A DNA stretch of 64,000 nt from a virus (taxonomy: Duplodnaviria; Caudoviricetes), in IMG/VR virus record IMGVR_UViG_3300050821_002847, positions 115 through 64,114 of that record. The stretch is one strand, 5' to 3'. Of the stretch, positions 12,550 through 48,034 are shown piece by piece. Numbering within the stretch: position 1 is the stretch's first letter; the number at the start of each line of letters is the position of its first letter. A program made the position numbers and the translations under genes. The notes beneath the pieces are model-generated. The model had not been told where the DNA came from, did not search any database, and saw only the letters and a list, made by a program, of their open reading frames with translations.

Positions 12550-12843
12550 ATGGCGACAGCCTCAAGCGCACTGACTCCCCCGCCGGGGATGGACGACCAG
12601 TCGCAGCAGAACCCTACGTCCCCCGCTGCTGCTTCTCCGGCCCCGCCGGAACCTGCTCAGGGAATGCAGGCCGGGACGCAAATGGTCATTGGAGTCGTAT
12701 CTGGGCTGCGCGCTATCGCCAAGGCATTTCCCGCGACCGCGCCAGACATCGCTCAAATCAACGATCTGATGCGGCAAGTCATGGCCAAGATGATGAGTAG
12801 CCAGCAGACCGGCGAGCCCGCCGCGCCGCCGCAGGGAGGATGA
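12550..12843 (+). CDS. Hypothetical Pro/Gln-rich head-module protein
   Basis: 97-aa ORF coupled to the scaffold gene. Confidence 0.7.
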   Translation: MATASSALTPPPGMDDQSQQNPTSPAAASPAPPEPAQGMQAGTQMVIGVVSGLRAIAKAFPATAPDIAQINDLMRQVMAKMMSSQQTGEPAAPPQGG

Positions 12844-13718
12844 AAATGGAATTTGCAGAATATCTGAAATCGCAAGGCGCGTCGCCGGAAGACATCAAGG
12901 CACTGACCGAGGGCTCCTTCTCAGGCGTCGCTCGCAAAGCCTTCGAGAAGCTCCAGTCCGACGCCGCCGAAGCCACGCGCAAGGGCGTCGAGGCTGAAGC
13001 CAATGCCGCCAAGTACAAAGAGGACGCCGAGAAATGGTTCAACGAAAAGGCCGTCCCCGAGTACAACCGCATGGAGCGTGAATCGACTCTCGCGAAGGCC
13101 AATGAGGCTCGCATTGTCGCAGCGGTTCTTGCATCGCAGGATGAAGGACTGAAGGAGATCGCCAAACAGATGGGCTATCCCACAAACGGCAGTCCAAATC
13201 CGAACCCGAATCCCAATCCGAATCCCGCGCTGCCTGCTGGCTTTGATCCTGCCAAGTTCGTCACCATGGACACCCTGAACCCTTTGATGGATCGCGTGGG
13301 CGAAAACCTCGCGACGCTCGAAGACATGGTGTCCGAGCACGTGCAACTCTTCCCCAGCGTGCGGCTGAGCGTGCGCGAACTCCGCAAGGAAGCCCTCGCC
13401 GCGAAGAAAAACGTCTACGAATACTGGGAGCAAAAGTATAAGGTTCCCGACGCGCGCACCGCCGCTGAAGCCGCGCGACAAAAGGCTCACGACGATTTGC
13501 TCATCAAGCAAGGTGCTGACGCCGAGCGCGAGCGCATGACCTCGCTCTACGGCAACCCAGAGACTCGCCCCCTAGCGACCTCCACCTCCCCCTTCGCCAC
13601 ACGCAAAGAAACTGGGCGTGACAAGCAGCCTTGGGAGGCCGGGGAGTCGAATCTCGAACGGGATCGCGTGTCGCGGGCGACCAAGCATGTTGTGGAGATT
13701 GCCTCGAAGACGGCTTAG
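12840..13718 (+). CDS. Putative capsid scaffolding protein
   Basis: Helical, charged, immediately upstream of capsid gene; internal NP repeat. Confidence 0.65.
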   Translation: MKMEFAEYLKSQGASPEDIKALTEGSFSGVARKAFEKLQSDAAEATRKGVEAEANAAKYKEDAEKWFNEKAVPEYNRMERESTLAKANEARIVAAVLASQDEGLKEIAKQMGYPTNGSPNPNPNPNPNPALPAGFDPAKFVTMDTLNPLMDRVGENLATLEDMVSEHVQLFPSVRLSVRELRKEALAAKKNVYEYWEQKYKVPDARTAAEAARQKAHDDLLIKQGADAERERMTSLYGNPETRPLATSTSPFATRKETGRDKQPWEAGESNLERDRVSRATKHVVEIASKTA

Positions 13719-13747
13719 CAACGTACGACTCAAACTGGAGGACGGCA

Positions 13748-15007
13748 ATGTCTGACAAATTCGGATACATGGTGCGAAGGATCAGCACTCGCGTCGTTAT
13801 CGACATGGAGTCGATGGAAGTCATTGAGCGCGAGTCGTACCTGTATCAAGGTCCGATGGAGTTGTGCCTCGATCCAACGTTCGACCAGATCAGTGCGACA
13901 ACTCTTGCCGACCTTAGAGAAGATATACTTTATGATAATTTTTTTGTGGACACCGCATGGCAGCGCAAGATGCGCGTCTCCGGTGCTCTCGACGAGTTCC
14001 TCGGCGGCACCATCATGCAGACCCCGTTCATGTATGACCGTGTGAACGGCGGAGCCATCGCCCCTGGCTCGGACATCACCGTCCTGCAAAAACAAATCAT
14101 CGCTGCGACCGCCTTCGTGCCCAAGGAGTACATCGAGCAGGTCCCCTTGAACCTGTTCCAGACCAACGTGATTCAAGGCTCCGGCCCCGCCGTGAAGGTC
14201 AAGCTCGTCGATACCTACATGGCCAACGCGGTCCAAGCCTTGAATACGGACATCGCCATCGACTTCTACCGCCACGGGCAAAATATCTCCGGCTCCAACC
14301 GGACCATCTTCCTCAACGGCCTCACCGAAGCCCTAAACGACGGCATCAACCCGTCGTGGGATGGCAACGTCTTCCCGACCTACGGCGGACAGAATCGCAA
14401 CGGTGCCGTGACTGTGACCCTGAACTCCGTGCCTGTGTGGTGCGGAGACCAAGCCGGTAACACTGGCCAAGTGACTTACAAAGTTCTCGTCGAACTCTAT
14501 CTGAACTGCGTGCAGCGCCCGGACATTGGCCTGTGCAACAAGGCCCTCTACGCCTACCTGCTCGAACGCCAAGAGCCCAAGCAGCGGTTCGAGACGCAGC
14601 AGGACGTGTCCATCGGCATGTCGGGCCTGAAGCTCCTCGACGCGATGATCTTCGAGGACAAGCTCGCACCCTCGACTAAGTATGGCGCGCTGCTGCCTGC
14701 TGGCCTGTCGCAGACGACCTCCATCGCGCCCGCCGCGTTCACCACGCCGACCCTCACGACCGCGCAGCGCAAGATCAGCAATTTCCCGTCGGCGACTTCC
14801 GTGAACCCCGGCGAGCCGTTCTTCTGGCTGCGCGTCAAGGGCTGGAAGATTCGCCCCTCGGCGGACCCGGAGTATAATTTCAATTTCACTCCGCCGATTC
14901 GCTCGCAGACGAACGCGGACCTCATTGTTATGTTCCTAAAAGCAGCGCTGAATATTTACTGTACGTCGCCTCGGGACAACGGCCAGCTAATCGGCGCAGG
15001 ATTCTAA
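13748..15007 (+). CDS. Major capsid protein with N-terminal leader
   Basis: ATG 13748 after GGAGG; size and position; DQISATTL..LYDNFF, VKLVDTYM, TYGGQNR, SPRDNGQL patterns of HK97-fold capsids. Confidence 0.8.
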   Translation: MSDKFGYMVRRISTRVVIDMESMEVIERESYLYQGPMELCLDPTFDQISATTLADLREDILYDNFFVDTAWQRKMRVSGALDEFLGGTIMQTPFMYDRVNGGAIAPGSDITVLQKQIIAATAFVPKEYIEQVPLNLFQTNVIQGSGPAVKVKLVDTYMANAVQALNTDIAIDFYRHGQNISGSNRTIFLNGLTEALNDGINPSWDGNVFPTYGGQNRNGAVTVTLNSVPVWCGDQAGNTGQVTYKVLVELYLNCVQRPDIGLCNKALYAYLLERQEPKQRFETQQDVSIGMSGLKLLDAMIFEDKLAPSTKYGALLPAGLSQTTSIAPAAFTTPTLTTAQRKISNFPSATSVNPGEPFFWLRVKGWKIRPSADPEYNFNFTPPIRSQTNADLIVMFLKAALNIYCTSPRDNGQLIGAGF

Positions 15008-15020
15008 AAGGAGAACTCGG

Positions 15021-15770
15021 ATGAAGATTTACAAAAAGCTAATAATTGACATCGAGTCTTCCGAGATTCTATTCGAGGACTCCTTCCAGTACGACGGTCC
15101 GGTCGAGTTGGCCGCTGGCGGAATGCTGACGAAGCAGGCGGACCAGTTGACCGCGCGATTCCTGAACGACGTGAACGACACCGTAGCGGGCGGCGCAATC
15201 GTCTCCCTCCCCGCCGGAGTCACCGGCCCACAGGTCTCCGCGACCCGTCCGGGTGACCGCATCGTGCTCGACGACGCCTCGGCGCTCGCGGTCTCTGACA
15301 CTGCCGTCGGCACCCTGAACGGCGGCGTCTACGCCTACACGGGTACGCTCGCGAGTTCCACCGCCAACCCGCAGATCGGCTGCGTGGCCTTTTTCCGCTC
15401 GGTGGACGTGGGCAACCAAACCGGCGTGACCTCGAACTATCAAGTCACCGCCGACGTTCAGCCGATCTCCTCGGTGCCGACCTACATCGCGGGCGTGTTC
15501 ATCAATAACATCACCAAAGGCAACTGGGGCTGGATTCAGGTCGCTGGTCTTGCGCAAGTCCTGTTCGAGTCCTCGCTGACCGCCGCCGCCGCTGGCAACG
15601 TCGTTACCGCCAAGGTCGGCCCTACGACCTCCGGGTCCGCCGATGTGGGCGTCTCTGTCGCGTCGCCTGTAACCCTCGCGGCCCTGCTCGGCGTGGCAGT
15701 CGGCTTGCCTGTGACTAGCACCATGTCGTCGGTGATGCTGACTCGCGGCAACTTCTGCGGGCGCATCTGA
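15021..15770 (+). CDS. Putative capsid decoration/cement protein with the same N-terminal leader
   Basis: Follows capsid gene; A/G/T/V-rich; GNWGWIQVAG motif. Confidence 0.6.
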   Translation: MKIYKKLIIDIESSEILFEDSFQYDGPVELAAGGMLTKQADQLTARFLNDVNDTVAGGAIVSLPAGVTGPQVSATRPGDRIVLDDASALAVSDTAVGTLNGGVYAYTGTLASSTANPQIGCVAFFRSVDVGNQTGVTSNYQVTADVQPISSVPTYIAGVFINNITKGNWGWIQVAGLAQVLFESSLTAAAAGNVVTAKVGPTTSGSADVGVSVASPVTLAALLGVAVGLPVTSTMSSVMLTRGNFCGRI

Positions 15771-15785
15771 TCTAAGGGAGCCTTG

Positions 15786-16151
15786 ATGGCATTCGCGGCA
15801 GGCAACACAATCGTCTCGACCATTCCGGTCGGCCCGCGCACCGTGGTGACGTTCGATCACATTGGCCCCGCGAACTACTCACAAGCCGTTGGAGATGTCA
15901 TCAATGCTGCCGACTTGGGCTTCGGAGGATTCGAGTTCGTGGACATCACGGCGGACACGACCACACAGTTCGAGGCGTTCCCGGAGTTCAGCACAGGAGG
16001 CAATGGTAATGCTGTGCCATCCATCGAGATTTCGTGGTTCTCGCTTCTGACGGCTAGTATCGGCGGACAGTCTCAGGTTCTAGGAACCGAAGCAGCGAAT
16101 GGCACTAACCTATCCACCTTCAGCATCCGCCTGCAAGCGTGGATGGTCTAG
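15786..16151 (+). CDS. Putative virion protein (paralog 1)
   Basis: GGGAG RBS; similar to next gene. Confidence 0.65.
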   Translation: MAFAAGNTIVSTIPVGPRTVVTFDHIGPANYSQAVGDVINAADLGFGGFEFVDITADTTTQFEAFPEFSTGGNGNAVPSIEISWFSLLTASIGGQSQVLGTEAANGTNLSTFSIRLQAWMV

Positions 16152-16160
16152 GAGACTCCG

Positions 16161-16568
16161 ATGGCGACACGACCACTACCCGGCTATCCGTGCCCGAACG
16201 AAAAGGGCGGCTACGACTGGATTGGCGACGTTGACGGGCCGTCTAGCTATAACAACACGGGTACCTTCAACACCTCTGGCCAGCAGATCAACGCTGGAGA
16301 CTTCGGCATGGGCGGATTCGAGATCGTGGATATCCCCGCGCTCAGCAGCGATGGCATCAACGAAGTCCTCGTGGTGCTCGGCGCGACCACCGCAGGCGCA
16401 ACCGGCCTGTCGCCCTCTCCGCCAGCAGGCAACAGCGCGCCAGCCGAAACCACTGCAGTCCTGCACTGGTACACGGCCATCCGAGGCGTGGGCTCGAACC
16501 CTAGCGAAGTCGCTAACGGCACCAACCTGAGCGCGAAGTCAGTCCGGCTGCGTATCACCTTCACCTAG
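16161..16568 (+). CDS. Putative virion protein (paralog 2)
   Basis: GGAG RBS; shares INAxDxGxGGFExVDI and ExANGTNLS...RL with previous gene. Confidence 0.65.
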   Translation: MATRPLPGYPCPNEKGGYDWIGDVDGPSSYNNTGTFNTSGQQINAGDFGMGGFEIVDIPALSSDGINEVLVVLGATTAGATGLSPSPPAGNSAPAETTAVLHWYTAIRGVGSNPSEVANGTNLSAKSVRLRITFT

Positions 16569-46941: not shown

Positions 46942-47228
46942 GAGATTACCTTATGCGGGTTGCCATCGGCTTCGACTGCTTTGTGAACGTGATTTGTGGT
47001 GGCTTGCTTGATGAGACAATTAGCGCTAGGTCTGGACGAGCGGCCCACGCCGGCAAGAGATGGGGCAAGATTTTATCCGGCGCCTTGGGTTTCTTCTTCC
47101 CGAATCATTGTCGGCACGCGGAGTTGCACGACGAGCAGCGGGCGGAATATGTGAGGTGGCTGGAATCGCAGTCTGATCCTATGTTGCGCAGGATGGCAAT
47201 GGCGATGAAAGGTGAGGTGAGCGCATGA
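46938..47228 (+). CDS. Conserved phage hypothetical protein
   Basis: D.FVNV..GG..DETISAR.GR...NHC motif. Confidence 0.65.
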   Translation: MRDYLMRVAIGFDCFVNVICGGLLDETISARSGRAAHAGKRWGKILSGALGFFFPNHCRHAELHDEQRAEYVRWLESQSDPMLRRMAMAMKGEVSA

Positions 47229-48034
47229 CTCTTCCCATCAGTCCGGCTGGACGGCGATATGGGTATATTCAGAATCCTCCCGACCATCGCGACTTCGGAC
47301 TGAGTTCTCTACCCATGCCGTCCGGTCCACCGCCGTCGTCGTTCTCGCTAAAGGAATGGCTGGGGCCGGTGAAAGATCAGGGCGACGAAGGCTCGTGTAC
47401 TGCACATGCCGGGACGGAGAACTTCGAGTTCCTTTATCGCAAGTACAAGGGCGAATCGCCCATCTTTAGCCCTGCATTTCTATATTACCAAGAGCGCGTG
47501 CTCGACGGCTCGACCACATTCGACGACGAGGGCTCCACCGGGCGCAGTTCGTGCAAGGCCATGAACCAGTTCGGCGTGTGTCTGGAGAGCGAGTGGCCTT
47601 ACGTCGCAGGACAGTACAGCATCCCTCCGACGCCGGGGCAACTCAGCGATGCCCTTGCGTACAGGTCTGGGGCCTATCATTTCCTGACCACCGTGGGAGA
47701 CATGAAGGCGTGCATTGCGTCGGGATACTGCTTTATGATTGGGTTCGCGGTGTATGAGTCCTTCGAGCGCATTGGCTCGGATGGCGTCATGCCAGTGCCA
47801 GACAAGGTGAAGGAGCAGGTGCTCGGTGGGCATGAGGTGCTCTGCTACGGATACAGCGACGCGAGGGGGATGCTGAGCGTGCTGAACTCCTGGGGAACGT
47901 CGTTCGGGGACGGGGGGACGTTCTACATGCCATATTCGGTCGCGGCGGATAAGGATATTCTGATGGACGCTGCGATTCAGCATCTAGGGCCGGGATGGCG
48001 TGCCGCACCACCCGCGCCAGTCTCGGTCCTGTGA
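47225..48034 (+). CDS. Papain-like cysteine peptidase (family C1)
   Basis: DQGDEGSC, GGH, NSWG catalytic motifs. Confidence 0.92.
   Translation: MTLPISPAGRRYGYIQNPPDHRDFGLSSLPMPSGPPPSSFSLKEWLGPVKDQGDEGSCTAHAGTENFEFLYRKYKGESPIFSPAFLYYQERVLDGSTTFDDEGSTGRSSCKAMNQFGVCLESEWPYVAGQYSIPPTPGQLSDALAYRSGAYHFLTTVGDMKACIASGYCFMIGFAVYESFERIGSDGVMPVPDKVKEQVLGGHEVLCYGYSDARGMLSVLNSWGTSFGDGGTFYMPYSVAADKDILMDAAIQHLGPGWRAAPPAPVSVL

What the first reader, a model, noticed from the sequence alone, without database searches (positions are those of the whole stretch)
13748..15113. The same ~30-aa N-terminal leader on the major capsid protein and the next structural protein
Seen: capsid RISTRVVIDMESMEVIERESYLYQGPMELC|LDPTF and 15021 protein KIYKKLIIDIESSEILFEDSFQYDGPMEL-like GPVELA|AGGM share I-x3-hhID-h-ES-x-E-hh-x3-S-F/Y-x-Y-x-GP-h-EL, though the rest of the two proteins is unrelated. 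Similarity is at protein level and each gene has its own RBS. Established: some virion proteins carry cleaved propeptides (P22 gp7 loses its N-terminus via host OpdA). Inference: a portable targeting/processing tag, cleaved after GPxEL[C/A] or read by a modifying enzyme (the TPR-glycosyltransferase, GNAT or C1 protease encoded here), like a RiPP leader peptide.
Basis: partly seen in the sequence, partly recalled or inferred. Interest (0 to 1): 0.78.

Follow-up and report, generated by a model that had tools for sequence, protein, structure and literature searches.

The report
Portable hairpin leader on phage virion proteins
Two neighbouring capsid genes of this uncultured phage begin with the same 31-residue beta-hairpin peptide, which also starts over a thousand unrelated virion-protein families in uncultured phages and is most likely a removable leader like the one on phage P22's ejection protein gp7.

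Summary
The major capsid protein (13748-15007) and the next gene (15021-15770) share an N-terminal ~31-residue segment (BLASTP E 2e-7). Only these two copies occur in six frames of the window. The second protein has a capsid-decoration fold.

Most relatives start M-A/S-DPxFDQ (capsid) and M-AGGMLTKQ (decoration), exactly at the predicted junctions.

The segment belongs to a large, apparently undescribed family:
- 1069 protein clusters at E<=1e-3.
- It starts at residue 1 in 137 of the top 150.
- AlphaFold2 predicts a confident beta-hairpin followed by a floppy linker.
- Carriers are capsid, scaffold-like, ejection, tail-fibre and baseplate proteins.
- There is usually one copy per genome.
- It is absent from Pfam, PDB sequences and 50,697 GenBank phage records.

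In P22 gp7 homologues it occupies the place of gp7's 20-residue, host-OpdA-cleaved leader.

Cleavage is inferred, not shown.

The parts
13737..13741 (+). Ribosome-binding site GGAGG, 6 nt upstream of the capsid start codon
   Evidence: Read directly.
13748..15007 (+). Major capsid protein gene, 419 aa
   Evidence: phrog_9953 major head protein, E 1e-9. The match covers residues 38-415 against profile positions 2-327, so it starts after the leader.
13748..13870 (+). N-terminal cassette of the capsid protein (residues 1-41). The hairpin module is R10-C40 (13775-13867), of the 'RxISTRVVIDMESM' subtype.
   Evidence: Leader HMM 59.4 bits, E 2e-16. A 94%-identical relative (L001) has GTG-AGT directly followed by GAT CCG (DP), a clean in-frame absence of this cassette.
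15008..15013 (+). Ribosome-binding site AAGGAG, 7 nt upstream of the second gene's start codon
   Evidence: Read directly.
15021..15770 (+). Capsid decoration (cement)-like protein, 249 aa
   Evidence: AlphaFold2 model: body pLDDT about 90. Foldseek matches: phi29 head-fibre gp8.5 base 6qyy (E 3e-4), then the Pam3, E217, HFTV1 and TW1 capsid entries (the E217 and TW1 titles name decorating/stabilizing proteins). No Pfam or PHROG hit.
15021..15113 (+). N-terminal leader of the decoration-like protein (residues 1-31, 'MKIY' subtype)
   Evidence: Leader HMM 61.4 bits, E 4.6e-17. 102 of 120 listed homologues start with M in place of residue 31, followed by AGGMLTKQ. GC is 45% against 66% in the rest of the gene.

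Best explanation
The shared segment is one member of a large, undescribed family of portable N-terminal leaders. Its consensus is MKIYTKVVIDMxTGEV[IL]EE[DE]S[YF]EYxGPVALC[GK]G. It forms a two-stranded beta-hairpin followed by a short GP-hydrophobic-A-x-C/A tail. Recombination places it exactly in place of the initiator Met of virion structural proteins. I think it works independently of the protein that carries it, as a propeptide. It acts in cis while the virion protein is made or assembled. It is then removed at the conserved boundary after residue 31 by a host peptidase, not a phage one. That would leave the same mature N-terminus (ADPTFDQ..., AGGMLTKQ...) that leaderless relatives reach by ordinary Met removal. 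Shown here: the family, its strict N-terminal position, the exact junction, the optional presence among near-identical phages, the protein-level selection, the hairpin prediction, the virion-protein carriers, and the positional equivalence to P22 gp7's leader. Inferred: that it is cleaved, that the enzyme is host-encoded, and what the leader does before removal (holding, folding or localising the protein).
For: (1) Exact junction. The leader replaces only Met1 in both window families and in gp7 homologues. Leader-bearing gp7 homologues read ...ALC-DFGGGG, while leaderless ones start MPDFGGGG or MGLLDIFGGGGG. (2) Dispensable. The complete relatives G003, G004 and G005 have 0 copies, G001 has 1 (capsid), L001 has it on the decoration protein only, and the window has 2. 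(3) Strictly N-terminal. It starts at residue 1 in 137 of the top 150 of 1069 cluster representatives. (4) Carrier P0217 matches phrog_598, the family of P22 gp7, at E 1e-36 from its residue 34 against profile position 22. P22 gp7 matches from profile position 1 and loses its first 20 residues to host OpdA. Deleting them leaves about 60% of the burst. (5) No S78, S49 or S77 prohead protease in the 100%-complete own genome. No enzyme or neighbour family co-varies with the leader. (6) AlphaFold2 with 102 leader sequences gives strands 2-9 and 16-23 at pLDDT 94-97, then a linker at pLDDT about 57. (7) Precedent: the 80alpha capsid and scaffold leaders are cut by host Prp, the same motif occurs on non-homologous proteins of other phages, and the capsid leader is dispensable (PMC5744158, passages).
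Against: No datum here shows cleavage. A conserved 31-residue hairpin is far more than a cleavage site needs. Long Gly-rich, poly-Pro or acidic linkers after the leader in many carriers look like tethers for a retained module. The leader profile does not detect P22 gp7's own leader. A pairwise alignment shows only a G-R-x-L..E-E-x-S-Y resemblance. No host protein carries a similar N-terminus that would explain why a host peptidase should recognise it. Two pattern scans of 185,579 species' genomes gave only 9 loci, mostly metagenome bins plus one prophage. The genome records that carry it are labelled with diverse lineages (Pelagibacter, Desulfovibrionaceae and other bins), most of them metagenome bins. 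In the capsid subtype, 9-13 residues precede the hairpin, so a free N-terminus is not required.
Confidence: 0.42

Rival explanations
1. A retained add-on module. The hairpin stays on the mature protein and is displayed on or in the virion as a promiscuous accessory domain for binding or beta-strand docking, much as Ig-like domains are scattered over phage structural proteins.
For: Flexible or rigid linkers (Gly-rich, poly-Pro, acidic) follow the leader in many of the 150 listed carriers. The hairpin is predicted with high confidence as a unit separate from the body. In this phage family the leader sits on the capsid protein, on the decoration protein, or on both; N-terminal fusions to lambda gpD-like decoration proteins are tolerated (recalled, not from a call). 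Tail-fibre, J-like and baseplate carriers are external proteins.
Against: It never appears at an internal or C-terminal position among the top 150, except one probable mis-called start, unlike true accessory domains. It also sits on ejection/internal virion and scaffold-like proteins. PDB sequences give no match.
Confidence: 0.25
2. A co-translational helper. The leader is an N-terminal folding, solubility or expression element, or a chaperone handle, which matters while the chain is made and is neither cleaved at a specific site nor structural.
For: Met1-Lys2 are part of the conserved motif (M in 140 and K in 142 of 150). The leader coding stretch is much less GC-rich than the gene body (45% vs 66% for the decoration gene). 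The leader is strongly acidic. The 80alpha authors suggest a common-chaperone role for their leader (PMC5744158, discussion passage).
Against: Tight conservation of about 20 positions over 31 residues, against saturated synonymous sites, is more than a solubility or ramp function needs. The capsid subtype is not at the extreme N-terminus. Low-copy carriers such as J-like and ejection proteins do not need high expression.
Confidence: 0.13
3. A T4-style capsid-targeting sequence that loads tagged proteins into the prohead and is clipped by a prohead protease.
For: Many carriers are ejection or internal virion proteins. Shared leaders of this kind were noted elsewhere in this scan.
Against: 16 of 18 leader-bearing records have one copy, and two related jumbo records have two. 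The own genome has no S77, S78 or S49 protease. Carriers include the capsid protein itself, a decoration protein that binds outside, tail fibres and baseplate proteins.
Confidence: 0.08
4. A recognition leader for a phage-encoded modifying enzyme or protease (C1 peptidase, TPR-glycosyltransferase, GNAT), RiPP-like.
For: Peptidase_C1 is present in 4 of 24 records searched, all four leader-bearing, including both lineages with two leaders. In the 277-kb phage it lies next to a gene that I read as prohead-protease-like from its translation only; no family search was run on it.
Against: 5 of 7 leader-bearing genomes at least 90% complete lack C1. 0 of 24 further C1-bearing viral records carry the leader, while the same search found it in 18 of 18 known carriers. 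The TPR-glycosyltransferase is present in the leaderless G003. No neighbour family is shared across lineages. The GNAT was not tested.
Confidence: 0.05

Closest known systems
P22 gp7 N-terminal 20-residue leader, removed in a host OpdA-dependent way (NC_002371 annotation; PMC8402733 passages)
   Same: Both sit at the same place. Leader-bearing P0217 joins the gp7 family profile (phrog_598) at position 22, just past gp7's cut site. Both occur once per genome on a virion protein, are largely dispensable, have no phage protease, and are followed by a Gly-rich stretch.
   Different: 31 vs 20 residues. The leader profile does not score gp7, and only a GR.L..EE.SY resemblance shows in a pairwise alignment. 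The present family is spread over many unrelated carriers. Its cleavage is untested.
Staphylococcus phage 80alpha capsid and scaffold leaders cut by host protease Prp (PMC5744158, passages read)
   Same: A shared N-terminal leader on the capsid protein and a second head protein. The same motif occurs on non-homologous virion proteins of other phages. The enzyme is host-encoded, and the capsid leader is dispensable.
   Different: 13-14 residues that mimic ribosomal protein L27 and end F|A. Here the leader is a 31-residue acidic hairpin, no host look-alike was found, and the genome records that carry it are not labelled Staphylococcus.
Phage T4 capsid targeting sequence on internal proteins
   Same: A short shared N-terminal tag on unrelated virion-associated proteins.
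   Different: T4's tag is about 10 residues, sits on several cargo proteins per genome, and is cut by the phage's own gp21 protease. Here there are 1-2 copies per genome, no such protease, and external carriers.
Ig-like accessory domains scattered over phage structural proteins
   Same: A promiscuous add-on that moves between unrelated virion proteins and is optional among close relatives.
   Different: Those are 80-100-residue domains found at various positions. This is a 31-residue hairpin found only at the N-terminus.

Membership tests
P22 gp7-type cleaved leader | Lies at the N-terminus of a gp7-family ejection protein, ahead of the conserved body | tested here: met
   P0217 matches phrog_598 at E 1e-36, residues 34-207 against profile positions 22-195. 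P22 gp7 covers profile positions 1-232. 7 of 120 listed P0217 homologues carry the leader.
P22 gp7-type cleaved leader | Sequence relatedness to the P22 leader itself | tested here: inconclusive
   The leader HMM gives no hit on gp7 even at E 1000. A MAFFT pairwise alignment shares G-R-x-L and E-E-x-S-Y.
P22 gp7-type cleaved leader | Removal dependent on host oligopeptidase A | not testable with these tools
   Needs protein chemistry.
80alpha/Prp-type leader | Motif shared with the N-terminal extension of host ribosomal protein L27, cut between F and A | tested here: not met
   The consensus of 150 leaders has no such motif. Scans of host genomes found no cellular protein with the leader, only 9 phage-like loci.
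80alpha/Prp-type leader | The same leader occurs on non-homologous virion proteins | tested here: met
   Carriers include capsid, decoration, scaffold-like, ejection, J-like, tail-fibre and baseplate proteins.
T4-type capsid targeting sequence | Phage-encoded gp21-type (S77) prohead protease | tested here: not met
   PF03420 gives no match at E<=1 in the 100%-complete own genome. PF04586 and PF01343 also give none.
T4-type capsid targeting sequence | Tag on several internal cargo proteins per genome | tested here: not met
   16 of 18 records have one copy and 2 of 18 have two. The window has two.
HK97-type delta domain | N-terminal scaffolding domain of about 100 helical residues on the capsid protein, plus an S78 protease (definition recalled) | tested here: not met
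   Here the leader is a 31-residue beta-hairpin. There is a separate scaffold-like gene at 12840-13718 and no PF04586 match.
RiPP leader peptide | A modifying enzyme that co-occurs with the leader | tested here: not met
   No shared neighbour family. C1 and TPR-glycosyltransferase do not track the leader. The GNAT was not tested.
Sec or lipoprotein signal peptide | A hydrophobic core of about 10-20 residues before the cleavage site | tested here: not met
   The consensus is acidic and amphipathic with no hydrophobic run.
Capsid decoration/cement protein (for the 15021 gene) | Fold of known decoration proteins | tested here: met
   Foldseek: 6qyy_B E 3e-4 (TM 0.62 on the target), 8hdt_G E 1.9e-3, and also 8frs, 8qsy and 5wk1. 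Binding to the capsid was not tested.

The most novel reading that the evidence does not exclude
The hairpin is a universal handle that does not depend on its carrier. Uncultured phages of many lineages attach it to one late virion protein so that a conserved host machine (an oligopeptidase-A-like peptidase or a chaperone) reads it. P22 gp7's leader would then be a decayed member of this family. In the boldest form, the released 31-mer is itself the functional product and the virion gene is only its late-expression vehicle.
Probability: 0.18. Interest if true: 0.8.

Novelty: new variant of a known kind. Interest (0 to 1): 0.62.

Why it matters
Shared N-terminal leaders on virion proteins are known from only a few model phages, such as 80alpha and P22 (read here) and T4 (recalled), and their purpose is still unclear even there. 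This finding defines a sequence family of more than 1000 protein clusters with a confident fold. It has a sharp boundary and natural plus/minus pairs at 94% identity. It therefore offers a ready-made experimental system: the same capsid with and without the leader. It also offers a possible wider context for the unexplained gp7 leader of P22. In addition, it is a clean marker for annotating virion genes in uncultured phages, and it corrects start-site calls in these gene families.

Tried and rejected
A homo-oligomer test of the leader (three copies, complex prediction) returned no verdict, so it counts neither for nor against. The ESM Atlas look-up of residues 1-33 gave no usable hit.

The C1 peptidase and the TPR-glycosyltransferase were rejected as partners. 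A neighbour-gene clustering across 31 leader loci found only within-lineage synteny.

A double-glycine bacteriocin-type leader was considered and dropped. The GG belongs to the mature protein in leaderless homologues, and the capsid copy has none. A lipobox reading of ALC-G was dropped because there is no hydrophobic signal region. A DNA or RNA element was rejected because of the synonymous-codon turnover. Untranslated upstream sequence was rejected on the RBS spacing and the protein-level conservation.

Literature: full-text searches for MKIYNK, MKIYTK, MKVYTK and MKVYNK found one unrelated physics paper. No other search for a description of this family was made, so 'undescribed' rests on that search plus Pfam, PHROGs, PDB and INPHARED. 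Supplementary files were not consulted. The scan's earlier notes hold other shared leaders but none with this sequence.
Full report
OBSERVATION. The window is a 100%-complete, 64-kb record of an uncultured phage. The capsid gene starts at ATG 13748 behind GGAGG. The next gene starts at ATG 15021 behind AAGGAG. The capsid protein matches phrog_9953 (major head protein, E 1e-9), but only from its residue 38, which is profile position 2. The two proteins share an N-terminal segment (BLASTP E 2e-7, 18 of 54 identical) and nothing else. Six-frame motif and HMM scans find only these two copies in the window, with no intermediate scores. The copies share 53% of nucleotides and 12 of 31 residues. They belong to two subtypes ('RxISTRVVIDMESM' and 'MKIY'), so they were acquired separately.

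THE SECOND PROTEIN. AlphaFold2 with 40 homologues gives a beta-rich body at pLDDT about 90. Ahead of it lie a low-confidence arm and the leader, which is modelled as a hairpin at pLDDT 55-65. Foldseek places the body with capsid decoration or cement proteins. The best matches are the phi29 gp8.5 base 6qyy (E 3e-4), followed by the Pam3, E217, HFTV1 and TW1 capsid entries. In this phage the leader therefore sits on the shell protein and on its decoration protein.

PRESENCE AND ABSENCE AT AN EXACT JUNCTION.
- Second protein: of 120 listed homologues, 10 carry the leader. 102 begin M-(A/S)GG(M)LTKQ, 3 begin MLTKQ, 3 have a hydrophobic extension and 2 are other.
- Capsid gene: of 40 related viral loci with a capsid gene, 6 carry the leader (L009 and L013-L017; the last five are identical). 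Most of the others begin M-A/S-DPxFDQ or close variants. Four loci (L003, L031, L033, L039) carry a different N-terminal extension at the same junction (see OTHER CASSETTES below).
- Only L001 of 41 loci carries the leader on the decoration protein.
- L001's capsid protein is 94% identical to the window's. Its DNA reads GTG-AGT directly followed by GAT-CCG, a clean in-frame absence of 39 codons.
- Whole-genome scans give 0 copies in the complete relatives G003, G004 and G005, 1 in G001 and 2 in the window.

The leader is thus a cassette that replaces the initiator Met, and it is optional among near-identical phages.

A LARGE FAMILY. A pattern scan of IMG/VR with the leader alignment returned 41 loci with 27 distinct leaders. 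A profile of these, run against 1.84 billion cluster representatives, found 1069 proteins at E<=1e-3 and 139 at E<=1e-10. In the 150 listed, the match starts at residue 1 in 137. Conservation among those 150: G26 in 150, Y24 in 149, S21 in 146, P27 in 140 and C31 in 115. What follows the leader is a Gly-rich, poly-Pro or acidic linker, or a transmembrane or glycine-zipper segment.

CARRIERS. Carriers identified by PHROGs or Pfam are:
- two distinct major head protein PHROG families, phrog_9953 and phrog_14242;
- a J-like central tail fibre (phrog_31, PF13550);
- virion structural proteins (phrog_11190; phrog_8003 in 16 of 102);
- DNA ejection proteins (phrog_4287 in 9 of 102; phrog_598);
- tail fibres, baseplate wedge proteins, an internal virion protein, a scaffold-like protein, and one HATPase kinase-like protein.

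In the rows shown in detail, the family match begins after the leader. In a Maridesulfovibrio prophage the carrier lies among internal-virion-protein genes.

COPY NUMBER AND SELECTION. 16 of 18 leader-bearing viral records have one copy. A 277-kb phage and its relative have two adjacent ones. Between distant leaders, about half or more of the identical residues in most pairs use different codons, so selection acts on the peptide.

STRUCTURE. With 102 leader-bearing sequences, AlphaFold2 predicts strands 2-9 and 16-23 at pLDDT 94-97. The next 30 residues are at pLDDT about 57. The leader is a hairpin unit on a floppy tether.

- The papain-family peptidase at 47225-48034 (PF00112, E 6.4e-10) has no homologue in G001.
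- PF00112 is found in 4 of 24 records searched (G000, G006, G007, G011). All four bear the leader, but 5 of 7 leader-bearing genomes at least 90% complete lack it.
- 0 of 24 further C1-bearing viral records carry the leader. The same search found the leader in 18 of 18 known carriers.
- The TPR-glycosyltransferase has homologues in G001 and in the leaderless G003.
- No neighbour family recurs across lineages.
- The own genome has no S78, S49 or S77 prohead protease.
- The GNAT was not examined.

LINK TO P22. P22 gp7 matches phrog_598 over profile positions 1-232 (E 2e-95). The leader-bearing protein P0217 matches the same profile at E 1e-36, from its residue 34 against position 22. The P22 record notes that gp7's first 20 residues are cleaved by host OpdA. 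A passage of PMC8402733 gives the mature N-terminus KGGKG and says that deleting the 20 residues leaves about 60% of the burst. The new leader therefore occupies the place of a leader that is known to be removed. The profile does not score gp7's own leader, and a pairwise alignment shows only GR.L..EE.SY in common. Homology of the two leaders is therefore open. Of 120 listed P0217 homologues, 7 carry the leader. The nearest leaderless ones start at the DF-GGGG junction, and most of the rest have a hydrophobic glycine-zipper N-terminus. Xfas53, VvAW1 and P26218 also have that kind of N-terminus.

OTHER CASSETTES AT THE SAME SITE. Some relatives carry different N-terminal extensions ending at the same junction, each with its own RBS and ATG:
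- 20-24-residue hydrophobic peptides (L003 and L031 on the capsid protein; L035, P0014, P0022 and P0025 on the decoration protein);
- a 40-residue M[RK]xFSRIxDF...ERPAV type (L033, L039).

An uncleaved hydrophobic peptide on every capsid subunit seems unlikely to me. This weakly favours removal at this site, but it is inference.

MECHANISM. I put 0.42 on a carrier-independent propeptide removed at the boundary after residue 31 by a host enzyme. I put 0.25 on a retained, tethered module, 0.13 on a co-translational helper, 0.08 on T4-like capsid targeting, and 0.05 on a phage-enzyme (RiPP-like) leader. The precedents are P22 gp7 and the 80alpha capsid and scaffold leaders cut by host Prp. In the 80alpha case the motif also occurs on non-homologous proteins of other phages, and the capsid leader is dispensable (PMC5744158 passages).

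KNOWN OR NEW. The evidence that the family is undescribed:
- no Pfam family on either window protein;
- no PDB sequence at E<=10;
- no credible match in 50,697 GenBank phage records with four leader queries, only three E 0.08 hits under hypothetical or NUDIX genes;
- only 9 loci in 185,579 species' genomes;
- no paper containing the four N-terminal strings that is relevant.

The kind of feature, a shared leader on virion proteins, is known. This family, its size, its fold and its one-per-genome habit are not described as far as these searches reach.

LIMITS. Cleavage, the enzyme and the function are untested. The representative search listed only 150 of 1069 hits. Host identities rest on nine genome records, most of them metagenome bins. 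T4, lambda gpD display and Ig-domain comparisons are recalled, not read.

Noticed in passing
L003:6717-6912, L031:3430-3586, L033:6690-6876, L039:6672-6858, L035:7857-8037; proteins P0014, P0022, P0025: Relatives carry other N-terminal extensions on the capsid or decoration protein, ending at the same junction and each with its own RBS. One type is a 20-24-residue hydrophobic/aromatic peptide, sometimes ending in an A-x-A-like motif. Another is a conserved 40-residue M[RK]xFSRIxDF...ERPAV type. The site behaves as a cassette hotspot.
   Followed up: partly
window 47225-48034 (+): A papain-family (C1) peptidase with the DQG-x-GSC, GGH and NSWG motifs intact. It has a 47%-identical counterpart in another leader-bearing phage (G011) and 27 related viral loci. 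In a 277-kb phage its homologue lies next to a gene I read as prohead-protease-like from its translation only (L107:1523-2191). Its role in this phage is unknown.
   Followed up: partly
proteins P0143 and P0173: Hom_end_hint (intein) matched two of the 102 carriers scanned. From their sequences I take these to be P0143 and P0173, where a C-F-A-A-D-T-K-V-L-M stretch follows the leader; the call does not name the members.
   Followed up: no
window 15783-16151 and 16161-16568 (+): The two small genes after the decoration gene look like paralogues. Both contain a G(F/M)GGFE(F/I)VDI motif and end in similar strands. They may be further capsid-surface proteins.
   Followed up: no
L137, L138, L139 (Xfas53 gp38, VvAW1 gp03, P26218 gp29) and most of P0286-P0390: Most gp7-family ejection proteins start with a ~20-residue hydrophobic glycine-zipper segment rather than a P22-type or hairpin leader. 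The N-terminus of this family is also a variable cassette.
   Followed up: partly
window 15021-15113 vs 15114-15770: The leader coding stretch of the decoration gene has 45% GC against 66% in the rest of the gene. For the capsid gene the figures are 50% vs 59%. This fits import from elsewhere, or selection for an open 5' end.
   Followed up: no
L062:1059-1397, L076:1640-1978, L078:2736-3089: Small 113-118-residue proteins consist of the leader, a run of roughly 16-22 prolines (a few S or A interspersed) and a basic ~60-residue tail. They are encoded just upstream of a ~510-residue gene shared with L081 and L098, which I take to be the portal.
   Followed up: no
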